IMG/VR virus record: IMGVR_UViG_3300007616_000002
Span: 1 to 64,000 of that record
Strand: one strand, 5' to 3'
DNA length: 64,000 nt
Origin: a virus
Within the stretch, counting starts at the first letter, position 1. The number at the start of each line of letters is the position of its first letter. Made by a program: the position numbers and the translations under genes. The notes under the pieces are model-generated. The model did not search any database, was not told the origin of the DNA, and saw only the letters and a list, made by a program, of their open reading frames with translations. Shown one piece after another: positions 4,427 through 40,441 of the stretch.

Positions 4427-5115
4427 GTAACCACAAATACACGATAAAGGACCGTTCCGATGACTGGAAAGTGAGGACCCGACAGGGGAAAGAGCACCCT
4501 GTCCACGTGACGGACATTAGCGCCGTTCGTGAGCACGCTGAAGACCTCTGGGATGCCGGAACCTCTCCGACCCATGACTTCGACTCACGGGCCAATGAGC
4601 GGTCTCGTGAGAAGTTTATCAGTGACCGTATTGAAGGGAAGGTCGGTGAGCACGTCTTTAAACTCTTTCTCGAACGACTCGGATACTCAGCAGAAGTCGA
4701 TTACGATATATACGAGTCGAAGCAGGTCACCGACGACGCAGACCTGAAGTCTATAGAGGGCGATGACCCTACTGTCAGCTTCGACGTGAAGACCACAAAG
4801 AAGCGAAACAAGTGGCTCGCTATCCGAGAGTCGATATACCACTCTCACGAGCCCACCGACCCGTTCATTCTCGTGTTGGTTAACCCCGACGAAGTTCACA
4901 ATCCGCCCTTCACTGCGGAAGTTGTTGGTTGGGTCGAGAAGAAAAACCTCAACATCCGCCTTGGGCGTGGTGAGCGGATGTACATGCCCGGCGATAAAAG
5001 TCATAAGATTGGTCCGCCGCTCAAGACTGATAACCGGTGTATCCCTGTAGATAGCATCCAGCGCCGGACGAAAAATGAGTGGGAACAGTTCGTTCAGAAT
5101 CGACTGGTCACATAA
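4423..5115 (+). CDS. PD-(D/E)XK-fold nuclease-like protein
   Basis: GKVGE...DDADL...FDVKTT motif pattern; ATGA-coupled. Confidence 0.6.
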   Translation: MSNHKYTIKDRSDDWKVRTRQGKEHPVHVTDISAVREHAEDLWDAGTSPTHDFDSRANERSREKFISDRIEGKVGEHVFKLFLERLGYSAEVDYDIYESKQVTDDADLKSIEGDDPTVSFDVKTTKKRNKWLAIRESIYHSHEPTDPFILVLVNPDEVHNPPFTAEVVGWVEKKNLNIRLGRGERMYMPGDKSHKIGPPLKTDNRCIPVDSIQRRTKNEWEQFVQNRLVT

Positions 5116-5134
5116 CTATCTGACGGAGACACTA

Positions 5135-5422
5135 ATGAAATTATCAGAGTCATATGTTCAAATCGAATCGAGCGAAGAACGAAAAATCCGTCAGGCTGTC
5201 GCTGAGCGGGTTTATGAGATTGAAGATGACGTAGAGGTCACTGTACGTGATGAAGACATTGAGGGCCTCGTAGAAGAGCTAATCGGGCTCATTGAACAGC
5301 GTATCGAGATAGAAGTCGAGGATTCGGATTATGCGACAGGCGAGCACTTCCGAAAGCACATTAAACACATTGAGTCCTTCACTCTCATCGCATTGGTCGA
5401 GTACTCTGACCGAAACATTTAA
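5135..5422 (+). CDS. hypothetical protein
   Basis: Acidic ORF in operon. Confidence 0.55.
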   Translation: MKLSESYVQIESSEERKIRQAVAERVYEIEDDVEVTVRDEDIEGLVEELIGLIEQRIEIEVEDSDYATGEHFRKHIKHIESFTLIALVEYSDRNI

Positions 5423-5443
5423 GTACCCCCGGTCCTAATAGTA

Positions 5444-5534
5444 GCATACACGCTGAGACAAGGCGACGGGTTACTTCGAGATTACAAATCTCATCAAGCA
5501 CTTCCCGACGCCGACTATCGCTCAGGGTGTTTGC
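5444..5534 (+). ncRNA. minimal Y-RNA-like ncRNA (bulged-helix module)
   Basis: Own TATA promoter at 5418; stems ACACGCTGAG/CTCAGGGTGT and GGCGACGGG/CCCGACGCC with internal loop ACAA/GACTATCG; TTACTTCG then hairpin GAGA-TTACAAA-TCTC. Confidence 0.7.
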
Positions 5535-5564
5535 ACGCCTCATCTCTCCCGCCCTCTTTCCGCT

Positions 5565-5746
5565 CGGGCGAGCGAGTCGGATACTTCGAATCCATTGATT
5601 GATAGCTCAGCACTGGATTAAGACCGGACAACCGGACCGCGTTGGACGGCGGAAGATACGTCCTGCGCCCAGCCTAAATACTGGGAACAGAGGCCCTGTC
5701 GGGGCGACTCGGAACAACAATCCGACCCGACACTCCTCCCGACTCC
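5565..5746 (+). ncRNA. structured ncRNA, possibly a divergent member of the same family
   Basis: GTCGGA-TACTTCG ... TCCGAC stem, D-arm-like TAGCTCAG, several hairpins, no credible ORF. Confidence 0.45.
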
Positions 5747-5899
5747 ACATTTTACCGAGCACTTTTCCGAGTGTGGGAATGGGGTTAACTTGGCACTTTT
5801 TTGAGACCGTAAAGTTTATTAGCCACCCGGCTAAAATATAACGCGTATGGGAAACAGACCCAGTATAGAGACGGTTGACACCGGGGTGAAATCACGGTG

Positions 5900-6310
5900 A
5901 TGGTCGTCTGGAGTGATGCTTCTGTGAAGAGTCGCCACGGCGCTGGCATTGGCTGGCACATACAGACATGGAGTGAATCGCAGAGTAAGCTCTTGAGCAC
6001 AGTTGATAAAGGTAATGACTACCTCTCAGACAGTTACACATCAGAAGAAGCCGAGCTTCTGGCTATTATACGAGGGGTCAAAGAATGCCTACAGAACGGA
6101 GAAGATAGTTATCTCAAAATTCGAAGTGACTGTAAACCGCTGGTAAGAAAAGTACAGGACCGAACGTATATCACCGATGACGGTCGGTACATGAAAGCTC
6201 TCACCTCTCTTCTGAGCCATGTGAAAGAGTGGGATATTAAATGGCGAAAGCGTGACAAAAACTCAGTCGCTGACAGGCAGGCTCACTACGGGTTGGAGCA
6301 ACACGCTTAA
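5900..6310 (+). CDS. rnhA: RNase HI-like protein
   Basis: WSDAS..., EAELLA, SDC, NSVADRQA catalytic pattern. Confidence 0.8.
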   Translation: MVVWSDASVKSRHGAGIGWHIQTWSESQSKLLSTVDKGNDYLSDSYTSEEAELLAIIRGVKECLQNGEDSYLKIRSDCKPLVRKVQDRTYITDDGRYMKALTSLLSHVKEWDIKWRKRDKNSVADRQAHYGLEQHA

Positions 6311-6335
6311 GTCAAAGCTTCTCTAAAGTTGGCGT

Positions 6336-6536
6336 ATGAACACAGCAGAGATTTATCGACTACATGCAGTTCCTGTCAACGGAACGGTTCGAACCGTTCA
6401 CGAAGCTGACGAACACCAGACTTTTATTTTCGGTTGCGCGTTTGATGCTGATGGGCAAATCTTAGAGCAACTATTCGAATACTACGGAGACCGTGTGGCT
6501 CTTTCTGGAGACCTTGAGACGGCTGTTTCACCGTAA
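6336..6536 (+). CDS. hypothetical protein
   Basis: Leaderless ATG after a TATA box. Confidence 0.5.
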   Translation: MNTAEIYRLHAVPVNGTVRTVHEADEHQTFIFGCAFDADGQILEQLFEYYGDRVALSGDLETAVSP

Positions 6537-6570
6537 CATTTAAGTGCCGCCCGAGGCTACGTTAGACGTA

Positions 6571-7524
6571 ATGAGTAACAAAGTGATTGTAGCCGGTAGT
6601 CGAGACATTACCGACTTTGATGCAGTCTCCAATGCTATCGAGAAGAGTGGGTTCCAGATACGCGAAATTGTCTCAGGTGCCGCGGATGGCGTAGATAGTC
6701 TTGGGGAAGAGTGGGCCGAGAATCATGCCATCGACACTGCAATTTTCGAAGCTGACTGGGATACGCACGGCAAATCCGCCGGTCCGATTCGAAACAAGCA
6801 AATGGCACAGTATGCCGACGCGGCTGTCATCGTCTGGGACGGGGAGTCCGTTGGGACGCGTTCGATGTTAGAGAAGGCACTGTACAATCGTCTCGACGTT
6901 CATGTTGAGCCGATTAAATACGACGGATTCGTTCCTAACGACCTCACTGAGAAGGAGCTTCTTCGACGCTTTCCCGAAATTAAGAAGATTGATGATGTGT
7001 GGATTCGAGCAGAGCTAATCGAAGCAATGCTCTCTGCCTATCCGGATTACAACTGGAGTACTAGCTCTTCCCGTCACCATCACCCGCCCGATGAACGTCA
7101 GGAGATGGGACAATGGCTTCACGTCAAGCGCGTGTACTCAGTATACGAAGGAATTGCTCGGGACTTCGAGCACCAGAACAAGCTATCAGCTAGAGAGATA
7201 GAACTCGGAAAGGCCGCAGTGTTCCTCCATGACATGTTCAAATATGGCATTCCGCCCAAAAAATACGACTCTGCTTACGGCAATCACGACACGTTGGCGG
7301 CAGAGTACGTCAGACAATACACTGACTTCCCTGAGCAGGTAGCACGAGCGTGTGACACGCACAATGGCGGCTGGGGCAACGATACAATCCCCTCGACACC
7401 GCTAGAACAGGCTGTTCACATGGCTGACTATATAGCGTCTCGTGACCACTCTAATCACGGGGTCTACGAGCCGGTGACGGAACTAAAGGACATGTCTGAT
7501 ATGCTCACTGAGATTGAGGAATAA
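6571..7524 (+). CDS. SLOG (YspA/DUF2493-like) domain fused to an HD hydrolase
   Basis: VIVAGSR, SGAADGVDSLGEEWA, AGPIRN; C-terminal H...FLHDMFK...H...HMADYIAS. Confidence 0.8.
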   Translation: MSNKVIVAGSRDITDFDAVSNAIEKSGFQIREIVSGAADGVDSLGEEWAENHAIDTAIFEADWDTHGKSAGPIRNKQMAQYADAAVIVWDGESVGTRSMLEKALYNRLDVHVEPIKYDGFVPNDLTEKELLRRFPEIKKIDDVWIRAELIEAMLSAYPDYNWSTSSSRHHHPPDERQEMGQWLHVKRVYSVYEGIARDFEHQNKLSAREIELGKAAVFLHDMFKYGIPPKKYDSAYGNHDTLAAEYVRQYTDFPEQVARACDTHNGGWGNDTIPSTPLEQAVHMADYIASRDHSNHGVYEPVTELKDMSDMLTEIEE

Positions 7525-7643
7525 TATGGTAGTTTATAACGCACCCAAGGTGGGACACAAAGCCACGATTAAAGAAGATGGAACAATGTCAATAGATAGC
7601 CACATCTTGTTCAAATCCGATGGTTCCAAGGAGGAGTTCGGTC

Positions 7644-8147
7644 ATGAGTAACGAAGGTGAAGTAAACACACGACGCCTTGCTTCCGAAGTCTCAGACGAG
7701 GAGTTTTCTGAGTACAGTAAACTGCCCGTGACGATTGAAGCTGTGCAGATGGACGAGCCGTTCGTCGTGGAGACGATGGAGAACAAACGCGGAGAAAAGT
7801 TATACGGGGACGAAGGAGACTACCTCATCCGAGGAGTCGAGGGAGAGCTTTACCCGTGTGACGCGAGTGTGTTTGACCAGACCTATCGAAAGGGATGCAA
7901 GTGTGACATGCGAGAGTTTCATTTCCAGCGTGTCGAAGATGAATCGGGGACCTCTGGAACCGGAATAGTTGCTGAGGGAGTCGAGTTCTCCGATGGAAGT
8001 GTGATGATTCACTGGTTCAACGAGGACAACCCCAACCTCAACACTACGTCTGATGGGTTCTCGTTCAAGCCCGGTCCTGACGGGATGGAGGATACTATAC
8101 AGGTCCACGGACACGGTGGGAAAACTGAGGTTGTATTCCATGAGTAG
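7644..8147 (+). CDS. two-domain phage protein (PGDYG-like GDYLIRGVEGELYPC domain)
   Basis: GDYLIRGVEGELYPC..VFDQTY followed by DESGTSGTGIVAEGVEF domain. Confidence 0.65.
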   Translation: MSNEGEVNTRRLASEVSDEEFSEYSKLPVTIEAVQMDEPFVVETMENKRGEKLYGDEGDYLIRGVEGELYPCDASVFDQTYRKGCKCDMREFHFQRVEDESGTSGTGIVAEGVEFSDGSVMIHWFNEDNPNLNTTSDGFSFKPGPDGMEDTIQVHGHGGKTEVVFHE

Positions 8148-8461
8148 AATTTGTGGTAACTGCGGAAAGAATCTCAAAATACCGCATGGGCGAGGAGATA
8201 TAACGAAGGTTTCTGTTTCCTTTGGTGGTTCTTTCTGCTCTCGTGAATGTGCAGTTGAATCGTGGGAAGAGCACGACTTACTTGGATGACAATGTCACTC
8301 GGACTAGCTGAGTATTATCGTGGTTTTCGTGCGGAGGGCAACGGGCGTATTCGTTCGGTTATTGACGTGCTGTTTTTCTTACTGAGTGTTTTGGCGGTGC
8401 ATGTGGTGAAGGTATTCCCTCTTCCATAATCTTTATATTCCACCCGGAGTAAGTGGTGAGT

Positions 8462-9946
8462 ATGAAAGTAAAAGGAGACTACAATACTGCTGACGTAAAG
8501 ACAGAATCTGGCGAGGATGAAGCAATCGACCAGATTCAGTCGATGGTGGATGCTGAGGCCTTTGAGGGCGACGAAGACGTAGCAATTATGCCCGACTTCC
8601 ATTTCGGTTCAGGCGCTGTTATCGGCTTCACAATGCCGTTCAAAGACCGTGTTGCCCCGGCAACAGTTGGCGTTGACATTGGGTGCGGAATGACCGCCAT
8701 TCGTCTGAACGGGAATCCCGAACTCGAAGACTGGGACCTTCGTGAAGAAGTAGACGAGGCTGTTCGTGAGCGCGTCCCCGTCGGGTTCGACGTTCACAAC
8801 CGTAGCGACTATCACATGGTGGACGACTTCCCGTGGGAAGTCTGTGCGACGAAGCTGTCGGAGTTCGAGAAGACAACCGGCTTTGACCTCGGGGGAGACA
8901 AGCCGCCTACGTTCGATGGAACTGATATTCCCCTCTACGGCAAAGAGTATTTCATCGACCTACTGAAGCGTGTCGAGTATGACTCCACACGAGCCATTAA
9001 CTCGGTCGGCACACTCGGTGGTGGGAATCACTTTATCGAGATTGGCGAAGACCCTGACGCTGTTGAAAACCCCTACTGGGCAGTCATCCACTCTGGGTCC
9101 CGAGGTCTCGGGGCGTCTATCGCCCAGTACTGGATTGACCGTGCAGGCAAGATTCGAAACGCTACCGATGTGCGTAAGCACTTCCGCTTACTCCCCAAGG
9201 AGTACCGCAAGTACCTCAAGTTCGACGTTGATGGTGTGTCAGACGAAGACTTACTTGACTGGGTGCAGGGTGGCATGGGTGAGGATTACGTGGCCTACGA
9301 ACTACTCAAAGATGAGTATAAGGAAACTGACCCCGAGCGCATCGGTGAAATCTCTACCGCACTGAAGGACGCTCTCAACGTCATCAAGACGGGTGAAGAC
9401 CCCACGGCCTACCTCGAAGAAGAAGAGGCCCACGGATACATCGTGGACATGGTGTTCGCCCAGACCTACGCACAGGAGTCGCGCAAGCAGATGGCCAAGG
9501 CTGTCGAAGATGCATGGAAAGAGCTTGGCCTCACCGCCAAAGACATGGCGTCTCGGGACTTTATCGAGTCAGTCCACAACTACATCGACTTCCGCGACGC
9601 CACCATCAGAAAGGGTGCTTGTCGGGCCCACGAAGACGAGCGTGTTATCATCCCCTTCAACATGAAATATGGCACTCTCATCTGCAAGGGCAAGGGCGAC
9701 GAAGACTGGAACAACTCAGCACCCCACGGCGCTGGTCGTGCCATGTCGCGTACCGGAGCTAAACAGAAGTTCGAGCAGGACAACTTCGAAAACGAGATGG
9801 CAGACGCAGGAGTCTATCTCTCGAAACACCCGCTTGACGAAGCTCCCGGGGCGTACAAGGACCCTGAAACAATCGAAGATGCCATCGGCCCCACTGTCGA
9901 GGTGAAACGGCGTGTAAAGCCGCTCATTTCCATCAAGGCGGAGTGA
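8462..9946 (+). CDS. rtcB: RtcB RNA ligase
   Basis: MPDFHFG, GVDIGCG, GTLGGGNHFIE, HSGSRG, HNY, SAPHGAGR, DEAPGAYK. Confidence 0.97.
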   Translation: MKVKGDYNTADVKTESGEDEAIDQIQSMVDAEAFEGDEDVAIMPDFHFGSGAVIGFTMPFKDRVAPATVGVDIGCGMTAIRLNGNPELEDWDLREEVDEAVRERVPVGFDVHNRSDYHMVDDFPWEVCATKLSEFEKTTGFDLGGDKPPTFDGTDIPLYGKEYFIDLLKRVEYDSTRAINSVGTLGGGNHFIEIGEDPDAVENPYWAVIHSGSRGLGASIAQYWIDRAGKIRNATDVRKHFRLLPKEYRKYLKFDVDGVSDEDLLDWVQGGMGEDYVAYELLKDEYKETDPERIGEISTALKDALNVIKTGEDPTAYLEEEEAHGYIVDMVFAQTYAQESRKQMAKAVEDAWKELGLTAKDMASRDFIESVHNYIDFRDATIRKGACRAHEDERVIIPFNMKYGTLICKGKGDEDWNNSAPHGAGRAMSRTGAKQKFEQDNFENEMADAGVYLSKHPLDEAPGAYKDPETIEDAIGPTVEVKRRVKPLISIKAE

Positions 9947-9947
9947 A

Positions 9948-10406
9948 ATGAGCGATTACGAATTACCCAGCGACGCCATAGAAATCCGCTCGGCCAGCAA
10001 CGACCCCGACCACGTGGACGACTTCCGGACAAAGAGCCACTACCCCGAAGAGGTGGCTGACCAGTGGGACGAGATACGAGCCGGTCAGTGTGTTTACGTT
10101 GATGAAAAAGGAAACGAGGTTGATGGATTGAGTGACGCGTATGTAGTCCTTCATCCGTCGTATGCAATGGATGGAATGCCGTCGTCTCTCTCGGGAATTG
10201 GACCTGATGACCTTCCGCCTGTCACAACTCACCATGTTGGACGGCCTGACGAGCGCATTGAAGAGCAGAAACAGACCGAGTGGAAGAACGTTTACGCCGA
10301 GTGGGTAGACCCCGACACTGGGCACGCAATGGTAACAGGGCTGGATGAAGACGGCGAAGTGGTAGACGTTGATATAAACAAGGTGTACGCTGATGACGAG
10401 GAGTGA
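9948..10406 (+). CDS. hypothetical protein coupled to rtcB
   Basis: Starts 1 nt after the rtcB stop; acidic. Confidence 0.7.
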   Translation: MSDYELPSDAIEIRSASNDPDHVDDFRTKSHYPEEVADQWDEIRAGQCVYVDEKGNEVDGLSDAYVVLHPSYAMDGMPSSLSGIGPDDLPPVTTHHVGRPDERIEEQKQTEWKNVYAEWVDPDTGHAMVTGLDEDGEVVDVDINKVYADDEE

Positions 10407-10512
10407 TGAGAAATTCGAGCAAGCTGAACGTGGTCCGTTCGGGAAGCTCCTCGAACTGATGCGACAGTGGGTTCACCAAAAGTCTTAAGACCTACCCGGT
10501 CAAAGTCAGGGT

Positions 10513-11580
10513 ATGGACGAACGTACCGCTGACAACGTTATTAGAATCGCTCAACTGTTTATTTCTGCACTCGACGGTAATGAGTACCACAACTGGGACC
10601 ATCATCGCTCTGTTGTAGAGGAAGCTGTTACTATCGCACGAAAAGAAGGCCTCTCAAACGAGGATGAGCTACTTCTACGAGTTGCCACGTGGTTCCACGA
10701 CATTGGGTACGTCAACGGCGCTGATGACCATGAGAAGCTGAGTACTGACATTGCCAACGCTGTGCTCAAGAACAACGGTGTCAAGAAAAACTCTGAGGAT
10801 AGTCGTATCATCCGGGAAGCTATTCGGGGTACTGAGATTCCGAAGCGAGAAGAGCCGGAAAACAAAGTCGCCGCTATTCTCTCTGACGCAGACCTCGCTA
10901 ATCTCGGGAAAGATTATATCACGACGACAAAGCAACGAATGTCGGTCTATGAGGAGGCAGACACGGACCTGACCGAAGCAGAGTGGAACGAGGAAATGAG
11001 CCTCCCGCTTCTTGAACATGTCGCTGAAATCGGCTACTACACCGAAACAGCACAGGAGTTGTACGGCGACCAGCTTCGACAGAATCTCGAATACCTTCGT
11101 GAAGAGGTAGAAAACGGAACCCCTGACGTTATTGTTGCAGGAACTTTTGACGTGTTCCATATCGGACATGAAAAGATGTTCGACACCGCGTTCGCTCACG
11201 GGAATCCGATTATTGGTCTCACGAGTGATGAGATGGCGTCCAAGTCACGTGAACGTGAGGTCCGTGATTACAGTAGCCGTCTATCTGGAGTCGAGATGCA
11301 GGCTTCGGAAAGAGCTAGCATGTTCCATCGTGAGTACGAGGTACAACAAATCAATTCGACGTATGCTGACGCCATGACTATTGACGCGGACAAGATTATC
11401 GTCTCTCCCGAAGAAAAGACAATCGAGCGGGCTGAAGATATTAACGATGTTCGGGAAGAGAACGGGTTAAACACACTCGATATTATCGTTGCCGAGGAAG
11501 TGCGTGCTGATGATGGCGGTCGTATCTCTTCGACGCGCATTCGGAACAACGAAATCAACTACAAAGGGAATATTCTGTAG
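10513..11580 (+). CDS. HD phosphohydrolase fused to a cytidylyltransferase-family (archaeal PPAT/CoaD-like) domain
   Basis: YHNWDH...FHDIG...DADL; AGTFDVFHIGH, GLTSD, VSPE, ISSTRIR. Confidence 0.85.
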   Translation: MDERTADNVIRIAQLFISALDGNEYHNWDHHRSVVEEAVTIARKEGLSNEDELLLRVATWFHDIGYVNGADDHEKLSTDIANAVLKNNGVKKNSEDSRIIREAIRGTEIPKREEPENKVAAILSDADLANLGKDYITTTKQRMSVYEEADTDLTEAEWNEEMSLPLLEHVAEIGYYTETAQELYGDQLRQNLEYLREEVENGTPDVIVAGTFDVFHIGHEKMFDTAFAHGNPIIGLTSDEMASKSREREVRDYSSRLSGVEMQASERASMFHREYEVQQINSTYADAMTIDADKIIVSPEEKTIERAEDINDVREENGLNTLDIIVAEEVRADDGGRISSTRIRNNEINYKGNIL

Positions 11581-11625
11581 TCACCAAAAAGTTTAAGTAC
11601 CCCCGCCCCCAAGTGAGCATGTAGT

Positions 11626-11746
11626 AACGCACGAGGGAAACGGATACTTCGACTATAGAGTCACCGCGGGTTCAAATCCCGCTCCGAGATAGCCTCTCGG
11701 GGGTGTTTGGCTAACCATATACCCCCGTTTCCCGACTCTTGGCGTT
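11626..11746 (+). ncRNA. YrlA-like Y RNA (circularly permuted tRNA mimic)
   Basis: Promoter at 11592; end stem AACGC-ACGA-GGGAAACGG / CCGTTTCCC-GACTCTTG-GCGTT; ATACTTCG; T-arm GCGGG-TTCAAAT-CCCGC precedes loop-closed acceptor-like stem TCCGAGA/TCTCGGG and a D-like hairpin. Confidence 0.75.
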
Positions 11747-11801
11747 CAGGGTGGCACCCCATAAAAAGCCCGGGAGGATGGCTCCTCTCGTCAGAAAGCT
11801 T

Positions 11802-11929
11802 GGACCCATAGCTCAGTCTGGTAGAGCGCGTATTTATACTCTGTCCTGCTATTGGCACCCCGGTGCACTATGGAGGGAGTTACTCCGATGCTAACGGCGA
11901 GGTCGATGGTTCGAGTCCATCTGGGTCCA
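11802..11929 (+). ncRNA. tRNA-like RNA (GCT anticodon) with 54-nt structured insert in the anticodon stem
   Basis: Acceptor GGACCCA/TGGGTCC, D and T arms intact; anticodon stem CG^CCG/CGGCG interrupted at 11831-11884. Confidence 0.8.
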
Positions 11930-11933
11930 CTTC

Positions 11934-12058
11934 GGGGCCGTGGTGTAGTGGCCTATCATCGACTTATCCCGCACTCGGCTATTGCCGTCTTACGGACAAC
12001 GAGCGCGGTTACTTCGTATCTGGAACGACGGACCCTCGTTCAAATCGAGGCGGCCCCA
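11934..12058 (+). ncRNA. tRNA-like RNA (CTG anticodon, Gln-like) with 52-nt structured insert in the anticodon stem
   Basis: Acceptor GGGGCCG/CGGCCCC, T arm CCTCG-TTCAAAT-CGAGG; stem CG^TCGT/ACGACG interrupted at 11962-12013. Confidence 0.8.
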
Positions 12059-12148
12059 CTAATTTTAGAGGGCATCTCCGGTAGCGATTAGTACCTTGCC
12101 AACACCACTCCCACAAACTTTAATATCCCCCCGACACTTGTGTTGGAT

Positions 12149-13042
12149 ATGAGCTTCATGGATACACTCGCTCTGCCCTCGGAGATGACAAAACGCGACC
12201 ACTGGATTGTCTGGAAGGTTGATACACGCAACGGGAAAGAAACGAAAATTCCCATCTCGCCGCACACACGACAGTTCGGTAAAACTGACGACCCCCAGAC
12301 GTGGGCAACCTACGAGAAGGCTTCGAAGCTCGTTAACAAGAAGCCCCAGAAGTACGGTCTCGGATTCGTTTTCACCGAGGACGACCCGATAGTCGGAATC
12401 GACCTCGACCACGTTCGTGAGCCCGAGACGGGTCGTGTGACGGACGAGCGAGCCAAGGACATTATCAACACTCTCGACTCTTATACTGAGATTAGCCCGT
12501 CCGGTGATGGGTATCACGTCATCGTCAAGGGTCGTATGCCCTCGGGGCGTAACCGAAAGGGTGAGATAGAGATGTACGACTCTGGTCGATTCTTCACCGT
12601 CACTGGTAACCGAGTCCCGGGGACAGAGCCCGAAGTCAAGAACCGCGACTCGCCGCTTCGCGTGATTCACAACAAGTACCTCCGAGAGAGCATGACCCAG
12701 CAGACTCAGAGTACTACCAACGTAGGTGACCCTGAGATAGAACTGGACGATAACGAGGTCCTCAAGAAGGCCAAGAACTCCAAGTCTGGAAAGAAGTTCG
12801 AGGCGCTGTGGAACGGTATCACCTCGGGTTATGATTCACACAGTGAGGCTGACCTCGCACTCTGTAGCTATCTGGCGTTCTGGACTGGTGGAGACAAGAA
12901 CCAGATGGACGACCTCTTCCGTAAGTCTGGTCTCATGCGACCGAAGTGGGACAACCAACACGCTTCGGACGGGGATACCTACGGCGACCTCACCATTCAG
13001 AAGGCGATTCGAACATCCGATAGTTTCTACGGGCAGAACTGA
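12149..13042 (+). CDS. primase-polymerase (AEP, NrS-1-like)
   Basis: GIDLDH, YTEISPSGDGYHV, EMYDSGRFFTVTG, HSEADLALC..LAFWTG. Confidence 0.9.
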   Translation: MSFMDTLALPSEMTKRDHWIVWKVDTRNGKETKIPISPHTRQFGKTDDPQTWATYEKASKLVNKKPQKYGLGFVFTEDDPIVGIDLDHVREPETGRVTDERAKDIINTLDSYTEISPSGDGYHVIVKGRMPSGRNRKGEIEMYDSGRFFTVTGNRVPGTEPEVKNRDSPLRVIHNKYLRESMTQQTQSTTNVGDPEIELDDNEVLKKAKNSKSGKKFEALWNGITSGYDSHSEADLALCSYLAFWTGGDKNQMDDLFRKSGLMRPKWDNQHASDGDTYGDLTIQKAIRTSDSFYGQN

Positions 13043-15843: not shown

Positions 15844-16646
15844 TGCCTATAAAAATAACTTGTGATGAGTGTGGGGATGAATTTACTGTTCCACCCTCGA
15901 ATTCCGAGCAGAAATATTGCTCTCGTGAATGTTATTTATACAAAAATAATCCTAATAAAGAAGAAAAAGTTTCAGTCAATTGTGACTGGTGTGATAGTAA
16001 TATCCAAAGAATACCGTCATTAGTAGAACGAACAGAAAATAACTTTTGTGACCAAAAGTGTTCTTCCAAATGGAGGTCTGAGAACTGGACTGGTGAACGT
16101 TCACCGACATATAAAGACGCATCTGTCGAATGCACGTGTGAATGGTGTGGTTCAGATTATGAAGAATGGAGTACTCGAAAAGAACGTACTCGATTTTGCT
16201 CTCTTGAGTGTCGGAATAAATGGCAATCTTCACGTGATGGACCCGAGCACCCACTGTACAAAGGTGGTAGAAAAGAATTTGGTGAAAATTGGAAAGAAAT
16301 GAGAAGAGAAGCATTATCACATTACGGAGAAGAATGCAGTCTATGTGGAGCAGATTCATCTAATTCACTGATTGATGTTCATCATATAATACCAAGATGG
16401 CTATGGGACAATGTTGATGATGCAGACAAACTATGGAATCTTACTCCACTTTGTAGGTCTCACCATATGAAAGTTGAACGCCAAACTGAGAAAGTTATTG
16501 AGAAAATGGCCAAAGAGGAGGCCGAGAATATCTTCATGGAGGAGAACTGGGAAATCGACACGGGTGAAACACTCTCCATCGTCTCGAACCGGTGCTCCGA
16601 GGTCCTGCGTCGGATGATTGACCAGAAAATCAAGGAGGAGCTATGA
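15843..16646 (+). CDS. HNH homing endonuclease with Zn-finger repeats, fused to a displaced ligase C-terminus
   Basis: Repeated CxxC...FCS..C, DVHHIIP...NLTPLCRSHH; AT-rich; last ~45 aa resemble the ligase C-terminus. Confidence 0.88.
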   Translation: MPIKITCDECGDEFTVPPSNSEQKYCSRECYLYKNNPNKEEKVSVNCDWCDSNIQRIPSLVERTENNFCDQKCSSKWRSENWTGERSPTYKDASVECTCEWCGSDYEEWSTRKERTRFCSLECRNKWQSSRDGPEHPLYKGGRKEFGENWKEMRREALSHYGEECSLCGADSSNSLIDVHHIIPRWLWDNVDDADKLWNLTPLCRSHHMKVERQTEKVIEKMAKEEAENIFMEENWEIDTGETLSIVSNRCSEVLRRMIDQKIKEEL

Positions 16647-19103: not shown

Positions 19104-19592
19104 ATGAAGTTCAATCAGACCAAGAAGTCTATTGCTGAGAGAACTCGGACGACCAATCACGAGGGTGGGGAGGCGTTCGAACCCGAAGATGTTCGACTTG
19201 GGCTTTATAAAGTCGTTATCAACAATCTTCTTGAAGACTCGTTCTACGAGTCCGACGAGGAGAGCTTTGACAAGGTGAAGTCACGTTTTGAGGAGTGTGT
19301 CATCGAGCACCCCGAGTTCGTGCTGAAGCTCGCCTACTGGGCCCGTGAAGAGGCGTACCTTCGGCAGATTCCCCAGCTACTGCTCGTGTTTGCGGCTAAC
19401 AACGAGCACACGAAGGGGTACGTCCGTGAGTACTCTACTGGAGTCATGCAACGGGCTGACGAGCCGCTGGAGGTGCTTGCAATGCAGGTGGAACTCTTTG
19501 GGACGAGTATTCCGAACCCTCTCCAGAAGGGTATCGAGGACGCACTGCACACGTTCGATGAGTACGAAGTGTCAAAATGGGATACAGCATGA
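19104..19592 (+). CDS. TROVE/Ro60 N-terminal half
   Basis: TTNHEGGEAF, DSFYES, PEFVLKLAYWAR...LR, QRADE, IPNPLQKGI...FDEYEVSKW. Confidence 0.9.
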   Translation: MKFNQTKKSIAERTRTTNHEGGEAFEPEDVRLGLYKVVINNLLEDSFYESDEESFDKVKSRFEECVIEHPEFVLKLAYWAREEAYLRQIPQLLLVFAANNEHTKGYVREYSTGVMQRADEPLEVLAMQVELFGTSIPNPLQKGIEDALHTFDEYEVSKWDTA

Positions 19593-20374
19593 GCTGGAAT
19601 AAAGTTTCCAAGTCAGAGTGTACCGGTGCTCTGGTTCAGGCGAAGCAGGAGTTGGGTGAGTCGCCCAGCGTGTCCCAGTACCGTGAGTTGGACCTACAAC
19701 CAACAGTCTACACCATGCAAAATAAATTCGGTTCGTGGAACAAGGCGAAAAGGGCCGCTGGCCTGCAAGCTTGCACCAACCGTGTTGTGAGTGATGACGA
19801 GATAAGCATTGCCATCAACCTGTACGCAGGTGGACTGTCAGTCCGGGAGGTTGCTGATGAGTTAGAAGTCCAACCACAGACAATCCATTACCACCTTCAG
19901 AATGAGGGGGTTACCGAGTCCATCTCTGAGGCTCTAAAAGGACGTGACCATAGCTGGGGAGACAAGATTTCGCAATCTCTGGAAGGTCATGAGGTTAGCG
20001 AATCAACTCGTGAGAAGATTTCAGAGACCCATACCGGGAAAGAGCCTTGGAACAAGGGAAAAACGAAGAAATCCCACCCAGACGAAATCGACTACGGGCG
20101 CTCAGGTGAAGCGCACCATGCTTGGAAGGGTGGTATTAGTAGTGAGTTGAACCGACTGCGACAAACACCTGAGTACAAGGAATGGCGTAAGTCAGTGTTC
20201 GAGCGTGACAACTGGACATGCCAAGATTGCGGTCAGAGAGGCGGTGAATTGAACGCGCATCATATCAAATCATTTGCGGAGAACGAAGACCTTCGGTTTG
20301 ACGTAGATAACGGAGAGACACTATGCAAGGAACATCATATCGAGCGACACATGACGGAGGAGAGAAATGAGTAA
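19589..20374 (+). CDS. HNH homing endonuclease (HEG repeat + HTH + NUMOD3-like) splitting TROVE
   Basis: KFGSWNKAK, HTH, REKISETHTGK, WRKSVFERDNWTCQDCG..LNAHHI...NGETLCKEHH. Confidence 0.9.
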   Translation: MSWNKVSKSECTGALVQAKQELGESPSVSQYRELDLQPTVYTMQNKFGSWNKAKRAAGLQACTNRVVSDDEISIAINLYAGGLSVREVADELEVQPQTIHYHLQNEGVTESISEALKGRDHSWGDKISQSLEGHEVSESTREKISETHTGKEPWNKGKTKKSHPDEIDYGRSGEAHHAWKGGISSELNRLRQTPEYKEWRKSVFERDNWTCQDCGQRGGELNAHHIKSFAENEDLRFDVDNGETLCKEHHIERHMTEERNE

Positions 20375-21374
20375 CAAGAGCCGTGAGTTCAGCTACCGAG
20401 ACCTGATGAATCTCGTCCATCCCAAGCCCCGAGACGACCTTCGGAAAGAGCTATTCAAGCGGATTGCACTCGGTGAACTGGACGACCACCCCGAGGTCGA
20501 GCCGCTGAAACAGCACCGGACGTGGGAGGATACCATGTCGAACGACGATGACGACCGCTCGGAGGCAGAAAAGTTCCACGACCGGCTAGACGATATGGGC
20601 CTCTTCGCCAAGATTCGGAACGTCCGGAACATGCTTGAGGCTGGGCTGGAGCCCGAGGTAATCCTCACAGACGAGGACCTCGATTCTGTTCCCCACGTCA
20701 AGCTGTTCCCGTTCCGCTTCTACCAAGCGTACAAGGCTGTAAAAGACGCTGGGTACCGCTCGACGTATCTCGATGTGTGGTTCGAGAACGCCATCGACCG
20801 GTCTGTCGAAAACGTTCCCGAGGAGTTCGGAGACACCTATGTAGCGGCTGACACCTCCGGGTCGATGACGTGGACGCCCATCTCCGATAACTCGGACCTT
20901 ACCCCGATGGAGATAGGGGCGCTCTTCGGCGCTGTGTGCGGTTCGAAGGGCGCAAAGGTGTCTGCCTTCGCAAGTACCCACGAAGACGTTCAGTTCCACG
21001 CTGGCGAGCCTGTGCTCTCGATTCAGGACCGCATCAAGGAGGCCCCCGCAGGCGGCGGGACACACGGGTACAAAGTTCTCAAGACACTCCGTCAACGAGG
21101 AGAGAGTTGGGAGAACGTCGCACTCTTCACGGACACCCAACTTTGGGGCGGCTCGCTGAAGGAGGAGTGGGACAAGTACATGCAGGAGGTCAATCCCAAC
21201 GCGAGCCTCTACATCGTAGACCTCGCAAGTTACGGCGACCTCGTGGTTCCCGAGGGGTACGATTCGGTCTATCGAGTGTCGGGTTGGAATGAGAACATCG
21301 TAAAGCACATCCGGTACGCATCGGAAACGGATGCCGCGATTCAGGAAGTCGAATCTGTCGGCTCTCCTGAGTAG
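20367..21374 (+). CDS. TROVE/Ro60 C-terminal half with vWA domain
   Basis: RDLMNLVHPKP, TWE, IRNVRNM, FPFRFYQAY, MIDAS DTSGSM, GGGT, FTDTQ, VSGWNE. Confidence 0.9.
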   Translation: MSNKSREFSYRDLMNLVHPKPRDDLRKELFKRIALGELDDHPEVEPLKQHRTWEDTMSNDDDDRSEAEKFHDRLDDMGLFAKIRNVRNMLEAGLEPEVILTDEDLDSVPHVKLFPFRFYQAYKAVKDAGYRSTYLDVWFENAIDRSVENVPEEFGDTYVAADTSGSMTWTPISDNSDLTPMEIGALFGAVCGSKGAKVSAFASTHEDVQFHAGEPVLSIQDRIKEAPAGGGTHGYKVLKTLRQRGESWENVALFTDTQLWGGSLKEEWDKYMQEVNPNASLYIVDLASYGDLVVPEGYDSVYRVSGWNENIVKHIRYASETDAAIQEVESVGSPE

Positions 21375-40002: not shown

Positions 40003-40441
40003 CTAAAAATTTACAACGTTCCGAGTCACAGAAGATTTAAGTGGCCCCCGAATAATTGAATAGATGAATGCAGACCTCCGACTTGTATGTTTGGCCACAT
40101 GGAACCCGCTATCACACAGAAGAATATTGTCGATTCGCACGCGGCACACTCGTCAGAACAGAGTTTTGTTCAATCTCCGACGAGTATAGACCGTGCCTTT
40201 GTTCCGCGTGACCAAAAGATTTAAGTACTACCCGTTCAAATCCTTTATAAGATGGCAAAGTGTCTGGAATGCGTGCCCGAGACGGTGCGTATGTATTCTT
40301 CGAAACAGCGGACCCCGATGAGTTGTTCTGAGTGTGGGAAACGGCCGGCTTACTGGTGGCAACCAGCAAATAAGAAAATTCACTTCAAGTAGCTTACCAA
40401 AAGATTTAAATACCACCCGTTCATTTGTTGGAACACGAAGT

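What the first reader, a model, noticed from the sequence alone, without database searches (positions are those of the whole stretch)
5444..5534. Minimal ~90-nt Y-like RNA displaying only an anticodon-like hairpin
Seen: it has its own promoter and the same ACAA/GACTATCG internal loop and TTACTTCG. Instead of a tRNA body it carries only GAGA-TTACAAA-TCTC, a 7-nt anticodon-like loop. Inference: a third topology of the module, possibly a decoy or tether.
Basis: partly seen in the sequence, partly recalled or inferred. Interest (0 to 1): 0.72.

Follow-up and report, generated by a model that had tools for sequence, protein, structure and literature searches.

The report
Minimal Y RNA of an archaeal virus
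The 5444-5534 element is a real small RNA gene: the short, tRNA-less type of Y RNA (the partner RNA of the Ro60 protein), here in a salt-loving archaeal virus that also encodes Ro60 and an RNA ligase. It is an ordinary member of a known RNA family in a host group where, in the papers I could search, that family has not been described.

Summary
A consensus viral promoter (5418-5430) precedes an ~85-nt RNA. It folds far better than shuffled sequence (z -5.5) into an end-to-end stem, an asymmetric internal loop, a 9-bp helix, UUACUUC and a short apical hairpin.

A covariance model built only from RNAs next to Ro60 genes in other genomes (78 sequences; all 13 pairs covary) finds exactly three places in the window:
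- this element (21.4 bits, E 0.002);
- a large sister 30 nt downstream (5559-5763);
- a tRNA-like sister (11626-11746).

The family's 5' loop consensus reproduces the published YrlA motif GNCGAA. This element has GACAAG, differing at the best-conserved G.

Of 120 distinct family members, 66 have a short body (10-49 nt) like this one. So it is the common minimal class (YrlB-like), not a new third topology. The 'anticodon-like' loop is not a family feature.

The same minimal plus tRNA-like tandem sits upstream of Ro60 in about 50 named haloarchaeal genomes and in HGTV-1.

Not tested here: Ro60 binding, expression, and the decoy or tether role.

The same first-stage scan had already noted the Ro60/Y-RNA system on this window.

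Verdict: new member of a known kind; moderate interest.

The parts
5418..5430 (+). Archaeal-type viral promoter TTTAAGTACCCCC; the predicted start lies about 28-32 nt downstream (5446-5450)
   Evidence: Exact copy of a motif found 21 times at <=2 mismatches against 0.75 expected. The same motif lies 34-36 nt before the 5' ends of the tRNA genes at 40441 and 43324.
5446..5534 (+). Element A: minimal (YrlB-like) Y RNA, about 85 nt; ends are predicted, not mapped
   Evidence: Fold z -5.48. Full-length match to model R2 at 5450-5528: 21.4 bits, E 0.0018. Top hit of the independent model R1.
5448..5457 (+). 5' strand of the terminal stem (ACACgCUGAG); pairs with 5521-5530
   Evidence: This stem covaries across the family (helix 1, 5 of 5 pairs with changes on both sides).
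5457..5462 (+). 5'-strand loop motif GACAAG, the variant of the Ro60-contact motif GNCGAA
   Evidence: Family consensus at fixed distance from UACUUC is G-K-C-G-A-R. The G is present in 93 of 118 members and is A in 8. The published motif is GNCGAAN0-1G (PMC4201824).
5462..5470 (+). 5' strand of helix 2 (GGCGaCGGG); pairs with 5504-5512 around an A-A mismatch
   Evidence: Helix 2 is 98% paired, with 8 of 8 pairs changed on both sides, in 76 distinct sequences.
5471..5477 (+). UUACUUC junction motif, near-invariant in the family; its UUAC matches the published YUAY
   Evidence: YUAY is described in PMC4201824.
5478..5492 (+). Apical hairpin GAGAUUACAAAUCUC, followed by AUCAAGCACUU (5493-5503); together with UUACUUC these form the 33-nt body
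   Evidence: 6-bp stem, ACA triloop in the minimum-energy fold. Not conserved in other minimal members.
5504..5512 (+). 3' strand of helix 2 (CCCGaCGCC)
5512..5520 (+). 3'-strand loop CGACUAUCG. It resembles sister B (CGACUCUUG) and departs from the family consensus S-A-N-U-U-U-Y-C-C.
5521..5533 (+). 3' strand of the terminal stem (CUCAGgGUGU) plus a UUU tail
   Evidence: The model consensus also ends in U-rich residues after the stem.
5559..5763 (+). Element C: large-bodied sister Y-like RNA, 30 nt downstream of A. No promoter of its own was seen. A T6 run at 5796-5801 is the likely terminator of an A-C transcript.
   Evidence: R2 27.7 bits, E 3e-5. Fold z -3.2. Its 5' handle shares a 14-nt string with the HGTV-1 element in the leader of that virus's TROVE gene.
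11626..11746 (+). Element B: tRNA-like (YrlA-type) sister with a T arm GCGGGUUCAAAUCCCGC and its own copy of the promoter (11592-11604)
   Evidence: 19.6 bits, E 0.006
19104..19592 (+). Ro60 N-terminal part (TROVE)
   Evidence: Pfam PF05731
20367..21374 (+). Ro60 C-terminal part (TROVE plus Ro60 vWA). An HNH homing-endonuclease gene (19577-20374) separates it from the N part.
   Evidence: 45% identity to HGTV-1 gene 129
8453..9946 (+). RtcB RNA ligase, the usual genomic companion of Ro60 and Y RNAs
   Evidence: Pfam PF01139, E 1.5e-62

Best explanation
Element A is a small non-coding RNA gene of the Y RNA family, of the short type that lacks a tRNA-like domain. Its counterparts are YrlB of Salmonella and Mycobacterium smegmatis and Yrn2 of Deinococcus.

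Proposed working:
1. It is transcribed from the viral promoter at 5418, most likely together with the large sister RNA C just downstream, and cut out of that precursor.
2. Its 5' and 3' ends pair into a stem. That stem presents the 5'-strand motif GACAAG in an asymmetric internal loop, followed by a 9-bp helix and single-stranded UUACUUC.
3. By analogy with solved and mapped Ro60-Y RNA complexes, this handle docks on the outside of the Ro60 ring encoded at 19.1-21.4 kb.
4. A carries no T or D arm, so it would occupy Ro60 without bringing the tRNA-shaped module that sisters B and C carry. It would then act as a gate, as a competitor, or as an adaptor for a different partner within the virus's RNA-repair set (RtcB, HD and nucleotidyltransferase proteins, many tRNAs).

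Shown here: the RNA structure, family membership by covariance model, the promoter, and the genomic association with Ro60. Inferred: transcription, processing, Ro60 binding and the gating role.
For: - Thermodynamics: z -5.48.
- Independent models: R1 was built from 19 Ro60-linked elements and R2 from 78, none from this window. Each returns only A, B and C in the window. For A, R2 gives 21.4 bits and E 0.0018 over the whole model.
- Negative control: 405 kb of unrelated viral contigs, each chosen because it contains TACTTCGA, give nothing above 16.5 bits.
- Structure is conserved: 94.4% of cells paired against 55% in shuffles; 13 of 13 pairs changed on both sides; covariation 0.97 against 0.22 (shuffled) and 0.11-0.18 (slid).
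- Link to Ro60: 126 hits in Ro60 loci, nearly all on the Ro60 strand and mostly within 1 kb upstream. All 63 hits in named haloarchaeal and other genomes are on the Ro60 strand.
- Link to published Y RNAs: the family's 5' loop consensus G-K-C-G-A-R equals GNCGAA, and UUAC equals YUAY. In Streptomyces phage GiJojo the model hits a T-arm plus D-arm RNA and a minimal one just upstream of the annotated Ro-like gene.
- A's class is common: 66 of 120 members have 10-49-nt bodies; A has 33.
- Same tandem in hosts: an ~87-nt minimal and an ~150-nt tRNA-like element lie side by side upstream of Ro60 in Halorubrum, Haloarcula, Halogranum and others.
- HGTV-1 has three such RNAs, one minimal.
- RtcB and Ro60 are in the same window.
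Against: - A's score is among the lowest in the family (21 bits against 25-60).
- It has A where 79% of members have the G of the CGA core.
- Its 3' loop misses three of six conserved positions.
- It lies 13.6 kb from Ro60, beyond the 4 kb used to define YrlA.
- The viral Ro60 gene is split by an HNH gene, and it is not shown that the halves assemble.
- No ortholog of A itself was found, so there is no covariation for this particular copy.
- No RNA data exist.
- Only UUU follows the stem, so a discrete 3' end is not established.
- R2 does not detect the Salmonella yrlB/yrlA locus or the Ro locus of mycobacteriophage Myrna. The tie to the experimentally proven Y RNAs therefore rests on shared layout and motifs, not on a model hit.
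Confidence: 0.7

Rival explanations
1. A is a decaying paralog: a duplicated Y RNA that lost its tRNA-like body and is drifting, with no function of its own.
For: Low model score. G-to-A change in the best-conserved loop position and a divergent 3' loop. No ortholog found. HGTV-1 has a tRNA-like element at the syntenic place upstream of its RNase H gene, whose 5' handle is about 80% identical to A's over 27 nt.
Against: Both helices are intact apart from one mismatch each, the fold is far better than chance, and it keeps an exact consensus promoter. Minimal members are a regular, conserved class elsewhere. A's body shows no significant similarity to the HGTV-1 body, so a recent deletion is not visible (1903 of 2000 shuffles score as high).
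Confidence: 0.12
2. A is not a separate RNP component. It is the structured 5' leader of one A-C transcript, serving for example as a processing or stabilising element for the large RNA C.
For: No promoter motif lies between A and C. Only UUU follows A, while a T6 run follows C. The whole of 5444-5805 folds as two independent domains. In M. smegmatis YrlA and YrlB come from one precursor (PMC4201824).
Against: A has the complete handle on its own, matches the model end to end, and folds independently of C. In bacteria the co-transcribed short RNA is itself Ro60-bound.
Confidence: 0.1
3. A is an anticodon-stem-loop mimic: a bait for host anticodon nucleases or tRNA-modifying enzymes, displayed on a Y-type handle.
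For: UUACAAA fits Y32-U33-NNN-R37. The virus carries many tRNAs and RtcB, consistent with a conflict over tRNA cleavage.
Against: The stem has only 4 bp in that reading. The energy model prefers a triloop. The loop pattern has about a 1 in 16 chance expectation. No such hairpin recurs in 62 other minimal members.
Confidence: 0.05
4. It is a chance hairpin, or a terminator of the upstream ORF (5075-5422), with no relation to Ro60.
For: A stem followed by UUU lies just after an ORF. The short motifs alone are not above chance.
Against: A consensus promoter lies between the ORF stop and the stem. There is a model hit at E 0.002 with only the three predicted sites in the window, and a clean negative control.
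Confidence: 0.03

Closest known systems
YrlB (Salmonella Typhimurium, M. smegmatis) and Yrn2 (Deinococcus radiodurans): the second, shorter Ro60-bound Y RNAs of bacteria
   Same: About 80-90 nt. The ends pair in a long stem with an asymmetric loop carrying a CGA-type 5'-strand motif. There is a short body without a full tRNA-like domain. It is encoded in tandem with a tRNA-like Y RNA and probably shares a precursor with it, in a genome that has Ro60 and RtcB (PMC4201824). In the Salmonella rsr-rtcB fragment L145, the first element after rsr shows the same order by eye: stem, CGAAUG loop, 8-bp helix, UUAC-initiated short loop (my reading).
   Different: It sits in an archaeal virus behind an archaeal promoter. 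The core motif is GACAAG, not GNCGAA. The body is a hairpin plus tail rather than the 'small pyrimidine-rich loop' described for YrlB and Yrn2. It lies 13.6 kb from Ro60. The R2 model does not hit the Salmonella locus. Binding is untested.
YrlA (bacterial and phage tRNA-like Y RNAs; Chen et al. 2014, Wang et al. 2018)
   Same: The same handle: terminal stem, GNCGAA-like 5' loop, helix, then YUAY. The same association with Ro60 and RtcB. Sisters B and C, and the GiJojo hit, have the T-arm-containing body.
   Different: A has no T arm, D arm or closed acceptor stem. ARAGORN and Rfam tRNA find nothing.
Unannotated minimal element of Halogranum tailed virus 1 (NC_021328, locus L046 16458-16531)
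   Same: Same promoter type, same handle, a 27-nt body, AUACUUCAAG. R2 gives 35.8 bits, but this element was in the model's seed. It is the nearest viral counterpart.
   Different: It lies directly in front of an intron-bearing tRNA rather than in front of a large Y-like RNA. Its loop is ACGAC with the conserved G. It is not alignable to A outside the handle.
Metazoan Y RNAs (Rfam RF00019)
   Same: Size, paired ends, an internal loop, and a 5'-strand Ro60 contact motif of related sequence (GGUCCGA against GNCGAA).
   Different: No Rfam hit at E<=10. Different motif, a different polymerase, and no La-type context.

Membership tests
Ro60-linked Y RNA family (YrlA/YrlB type) | 5' and 3' ends pair in a long stem, interrupted by an internal loop, in an RNA of about 80-130 nt | tested here: met
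   a 10-bp terminal stem, a 4/8-nt loop and a 9-bp helix; about 85 nt; z -5.48.
Ro60-linked Y RNA family (YrlA/YrlB type) | 5'-strand motif GNCGAAN0-1G near the 5' end (proposed Ro60 contact) | tested here: inconclusive
   A has GACAAG at the family's fixed distance from UACUUC, so 5 of 6 positions fit. The G of CGA (79% of 118 members) is A, as in 7% of members.
Ro60-linked Y RNA family (YrlA/YrlB type) | Conserved YUAY after the Ro60-binding stem | tested here: met
   UUAC at 5471-5474, within UUACUUC.
Ro60-linked Y RNA family (YrlA/YrlB type) | Significant match to a covariance model of RNAs found next to Ro60 genes | tested here: met
   R2 (seed without window sequences): 21.4 bits, E 0.0018, model 1-73. 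The control set gives at most 16.5 bits. E-values are rough because calibration was shortened.
Ro60-linked Y RNA family (YrlA/YrlB type) | Encoded within about 4 kb of Ro60 on the same strand | tested here: not met
   Same strand, but 13.6 kb upstream. In HGTV-1 and in haloarchaeal genomes the homologous RNAs are within 1 kb.
Ro60-linked Y RNA family (YrlA/YrlB type) | Bound by, and stabilised by, Ro60 | not testable with these tools
   Needs a pull-down or a Ro60 knock-out.
YrlA subfamily (tRNA mimics) | T arm, closed acceptor-like stem and D arm in permuted order | tested here: not met
   No T-arm motif in the 33-nt body. No tRNA or tmRNA hit over A.
Metazoan Y RNA (Rfam RF00019) and other Rfam families | Match to the curated model | tested here: not met
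   No hit at E<=10 in 5000-13000. Rfam also finds nothing over the clear Ro60-linked elements of 7 other loci, so this is uninformative for the bacterial type.
tRNA | Cloverleaf with an anticodon arm of 5 bp and a 7-nt loop | tested here: not met
   ARAGORN with introns allowed finds nothing in 5400-5860. The hairpin stem has 4 bp in the 7-nt-loop reading.

The most novel reading that the evidence does not exclude
The virus makes a tRNA-less Y RNA to act on Ro60 rings other than its own. Haloarchaeal hosts encode a Ro60 of the same clade with their own minimal plus tRNA-like Y RNAs. A viral minimal Y RNA with an altered contact motif (GACAAG, and the 3' loop CGACUAUCG shared with viral sister B) could plug or re-programme the host ring, or distinguish viral from host Ro60. 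It would then be a counter-measure in a conflict over RNA damage and repair, not a simple cofactor.
Probability: 0.1. Interest if true: 0.7.

Novelty: new member of a known kind. Interest (0 to 1): 0.4.

Why it matters
Y RNAs and Ro60 are well studied in animals and in a few bacteria. What the short, tRNA-less Y RNAs do is still unknown. This element, its two sisters, and the matching RNAs in HGTV-1 and in about 50 haloarchaeal genomes suggest that the Ro60/Y RNA/RtcB module, with the same two-RNA layout, extends to Archaea and their viruses. None of the papers I could search describes that.

This offers a genetically tractable setting (Haloferax or Halorubrum with a tailed virus) for asking what minimal Y RNAs are for. 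For genome annotation, these RNAs are currently missed or covered by spurious small ORFs.

For this single element the result is modest: it is an ordinary member of the common minimal class.

Tried and rejected
- Rfam at gathering and at E<=10: no Y RNA family hit. Rfam also misses the clear elements in other Ro60 loci, so this carries no weight.
- Exact-pattern scans of IMG/VR for TACTTCGA..GGGTGTTTG and for GAGTCGGATACTTCRA: only chance matches and HGTV-1 itself.
- Related loci through the flanking proteins 5075-5422 and 10513-11580: none in IMG/VR or GenBank phages. The megablast of 5000-12200 against phages found nothing.
The contigs of the closest Ro60 relatives (71% identity, P0002) could therefore not be fetched, and no ortholog of A was obtained.
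- My first fold of sister B, ending at GGGUGUUUGG (11712), was wrong. It was not better than shuffles. The descriptor scan and the model place its 3' handle at 11726-11746.
- The idea that A is a deletion derivative of the syntenic tRNA-like HGTV-1 element: MAFFT lined up pieces, but local alignment of the bodies is no better than shuffles.
- MAFFT alignments of the elements were out of structural register, and RNAalifold saw only the outer stem. This was solved by giving the structure explicitly and re-aligning with the model.
- Sequencing runs: no RNA holder listed.
- Laying contigs: a saltern run covers only part of sister C; nothing over A apart from the probable source samples.
- The supplement of Chen et al. 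2014 is not held.
- R2 gives no hit on the Salmonella rsr-rtcB fragment or on the Ro locus of mycobacteriophage Myrna.
- The genome search on the window's own genome with R2 returned only sister B, unlike the direct cmsearch. Its first-look filter evidently dropped A and C.

Full report
**Setting.** The window is the first 64 kb of a 76.7-kb IMG/VR virus record. Its nearest named relative is Halogranum tailed virus 1 (HGTV-1), a haloarchaeal myovirus; the Ro60 C-terminal part is 45% identical. The window holds 14 or more tRNA genes and these protein genes:
- an RNase H-like gene (5897-6310);
- a SLOG+HD protein;
- RtcB (8453-9946);
- an HD plus nucleotidyltransferase protein;
- a Ro60 gene in two same-frame pieces (19104-19592, 20367-21374), separated by an HNH endonuclease gene.

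**The observation.**
- TTTAAGTACCCCC at 5418-5430 is an exact copy of a motif found 21 times at up to 2 mismatches, against 0.75 expected. It also precedes tRNA genes at a spacing that puts the start of this RNA at about 5446-5450.
- The RNA folds into a 10-bp terminal stem, an asymmetric loop (ACAA opposite GACUAUCG) and a 9-bp helix with one A-A mismatch. UUACUUC, a hairpin and an 11-nt tail follow. The energy is -37.2 kcal/mol and z is -5.48.
- The short strings alone are not significant. Most TACTTCGA copies are Tyr-Phe-Asp/Glu codons.
- Only three copies are non-coding: this element (A), one 100 nt downstream (C), and one at 11645 (B).

**Relatives.** HGTV-1 uses the same promoter type and has three unannotated elements with the same grammar:
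- a tRNA-like one upstream of its RNase H region;
- a minimal one in front of an intron-bearing tRNA;
- one inside the 110-nt leader of its TROVE gene, which shares a 14-nt string with C.

I then collected Ro60 loci with an alignment of 30 Ro60 proteins of this clade: 9 from IMG/VR and 80 from metagenomes. A simple descriptor was used: 5-bp stem, 3-7-nt loop, 8-nt helix, W-UACUUC, body, helix, 5-10-nt loop, stem. It found the same handle immediately upstream of Ro60, on its strand, in dozens of unrelated loci from 29% to 66% G+C.

**Model test.**
- A covariance model (R1) was built from 19 short elements, none from the window. It ranked A, B and C as the only three hits in the window.
- R1 on 83 Ro60 loci gave 78 matches.
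- On that model-fitted alignment the 13 pairs are 94.4% paired, against 55% after shuffling. All 13 have changes on both sides. The covariation score is 0.97, against 0.22 (shuffled) and 0.11-0.18 (partners slid). The alignment leans towards the structure by construction, but the margin is large.
- A second model (R2) built from these 78 sequences again finds only three places in the window: C (27.7 bits, E 3e-5), A (5450-5528, 21.4 bits, E 0.0018, whole model) and B (19.6 bits, E 0.006).
- As a control, 405 kb of unrelated viral contigs, each selected for containing TACTTCGA, gave nothing above 16.5 bits.

**Link to known Y RNAs.** Chen et al. 2014 (PMC4201824) define bacterial YrlA by four things: a 5' motif GNCGAAN0-1G, a conserved YUAY, a tRNA-like T/acceptor/D domain, and location near Ro60. 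They describe a second, shorter Ro60-bound RNA (YrlB, Yrn2) in every species examined, in one case cut from the same precursor.
- In 118 distinct R2 matches outside the window, the 5' loop read at fixed distance from UACUUC is G-K-C-G-A-R, which is GNCGAA. UUAC fits YUAY.
- In Streptomyces phage GiJojo, R2 finds three tandem RNAs just upstream of the annotated Ro-like gene. One has a T arm and a D arm in the permuted YrlA order, and one is minimal.
- Gordonia phage Neville has one R2 hit 200 nt upstream of its Ro-like gene.
- R2 does not hit the Salmonella rsr-rtcB fragment. By eye that locus shows the same order, including a short first element. Mycobacteriophage Myrna is also not hit.
- So the family link is strong in layout and motifs but is not closed by a model hit on the experimentally proven RNAs.

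**Where A sits in the family.**
- Body lengths of 120 distinct matches are bimodal. Sixty-six have 10-49 nt, and 5 of these have a T-arm motif. Thirty-eight have 80-109 nt, and 36 of these have a T-arm motif.
- A, with 33 nt, is a typical minimal member. It is not a new topology.
- The bodies of 62 minimal members share no hairpin or loop size, so the 'anticodon-like' reading has no comparative support. The energy model prefers a 6-bp stem with an ACA triloop.
- A departs from the consensus at the best-conserved G of the 5' loop (GACAAG) and at three positions of the U-rich 3' loop. It shares this 3' loop with viral sister B: CGACUAUCG against CGACUCUUG.

**Hosts.**
- A scan of species-representative genomes found Ro60 of this clade (45-52% identity) in about 50 named haloarchaea, on chromosomes and plasmids.
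- R2 finds 63 elements there, all on the Ro60 strand. Typically an ~87-nt minimal and an ~150-nt tRNA-like RNA lie one base apart, 280-520 nt upstream of Ro60.
- In Halorubrum amylolyticum a third, T-arm-only element and a tRNA follow.
- The A-C tandem of the virus mirrors this arrangement. No promoter lies between A and C and a T6 run follows C, so I consider co-transcription and processing the likeliest route.

**What remains inferred.**
- Expression: no RNA run holds the sequence.
- The exact ends, binding to the split viral Ro60 or to a host Ro60, and any gate, competitor or tether role.
The helices of this particular copy are therefore supported by energy and model fit, not by their own covariation.

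**Literature.** In the held library, Ro60/TROVE genes are mentioned for HGTV-1-like viruses, Asgard 'Nidhogg' viruses and Borgs. No paper describes Y RNAs in archaea or archaeal viruses. Burroughs and Aravind 2016, which surveyed Ro60-RtcB systems, is not held and may touch on this.

**Verdict.** This is a real RNA gene and a new member of the known Y RNA family, of the common minimal class. The setting (archaeal virus and hosts) is the interesting part. The element itself is ordinary, and somewhat divergent in its presumed Ro60 contact.

Noticed in passing
L166 9482-9890 (Halorubrum amylolyticum); likewise L149-L198: Named haloarchaeal genomes carry, directly upstream of a Ro60 gene, a minimal Y-like RNA, a tRNA-like one, often a third T-arm-only one, and then a tRNA. 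All 63 model hits are on the Ro60 strand. No paper in the library describes Y RNAs in Archaea.
   Followed up: partly
L046 (HGTV-1, NC_021328) 11255-11433, 16458-16531, 19406-19500: HGTV-1 has three unannotated Y-like RNAs. One fills the 5' leader of its TROVE gene 129. One is overlapped by the annotated minus-strand ORF 148 (L046 11296-11487), which is probably spurious.
   Followed up: partly
window 19104-21374: The Ro60 gene is split into N (162 aa) and C (335 aa) parts in the same frame by an HNH/NUMOD3 homing-endonuclease gene (19577-20374). All relatives found have it in one piece (about 490-525 aa).
   Followed up: partly
window 11802-11929 and 11934-12058; L046 16536-16667: Two tandem intron-bearing tRNA-like genes follow sister B. 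The second contains GGUUACUUCGUAUCUGGAA, and the HGTV-1 'tRNA-Asp + intron' has GUUACUUCGCUAUCUGGAA. ARAGORN's intron models are doubtful, and R2 does not hit them.
   Followed up: partly
L121 11683-13104; L129 9611-9953 and 11866-12563; L142 11544-12479: Some metagenomic Ro60 loci carry arrays of 6-9 tandem Y-like RNAs, mixing minimal and tRNA-like members, upstream or downstream of Ro60.
   Followed up: no
L146 2568-2644 (Gordonia phage Neville); L210 2413-2756 (Streptomyces phage GiJojo): Model hits just upstream of the annotated Ro-like genes. In Neville the hit lies under two tiny annotated ORFs (gp089, gp090). In GiJojo three tandem RNAs lie unannotated between tRNA-Asn and tRNA-Arg.
   Followed up: partly
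window 5542-5712: A saltern metagenome run holds short contigs that cover part of sister C, with 9 substitutions and a 3-nt insertion. A relative of this RNA therefore exists in another sample. Nothing there covers A.
   Followed up: no
window, 13 sites of TACTTCGA: TACTTCGA is about 5-fold enriched in the window (13 against 2.8). Ten of the 13 are in-frame Tyr-Phe-Asp/Glu codons of an acidic proteome, not RNA motifs.
   Followed up: yes
G000 whole record: the genome search with model R2 on the window's own genome reported only sister B, whereas direct cmsearch reports C, A and B. The first-look filter of that tool can lose weak or long matches.
   Followed up: no
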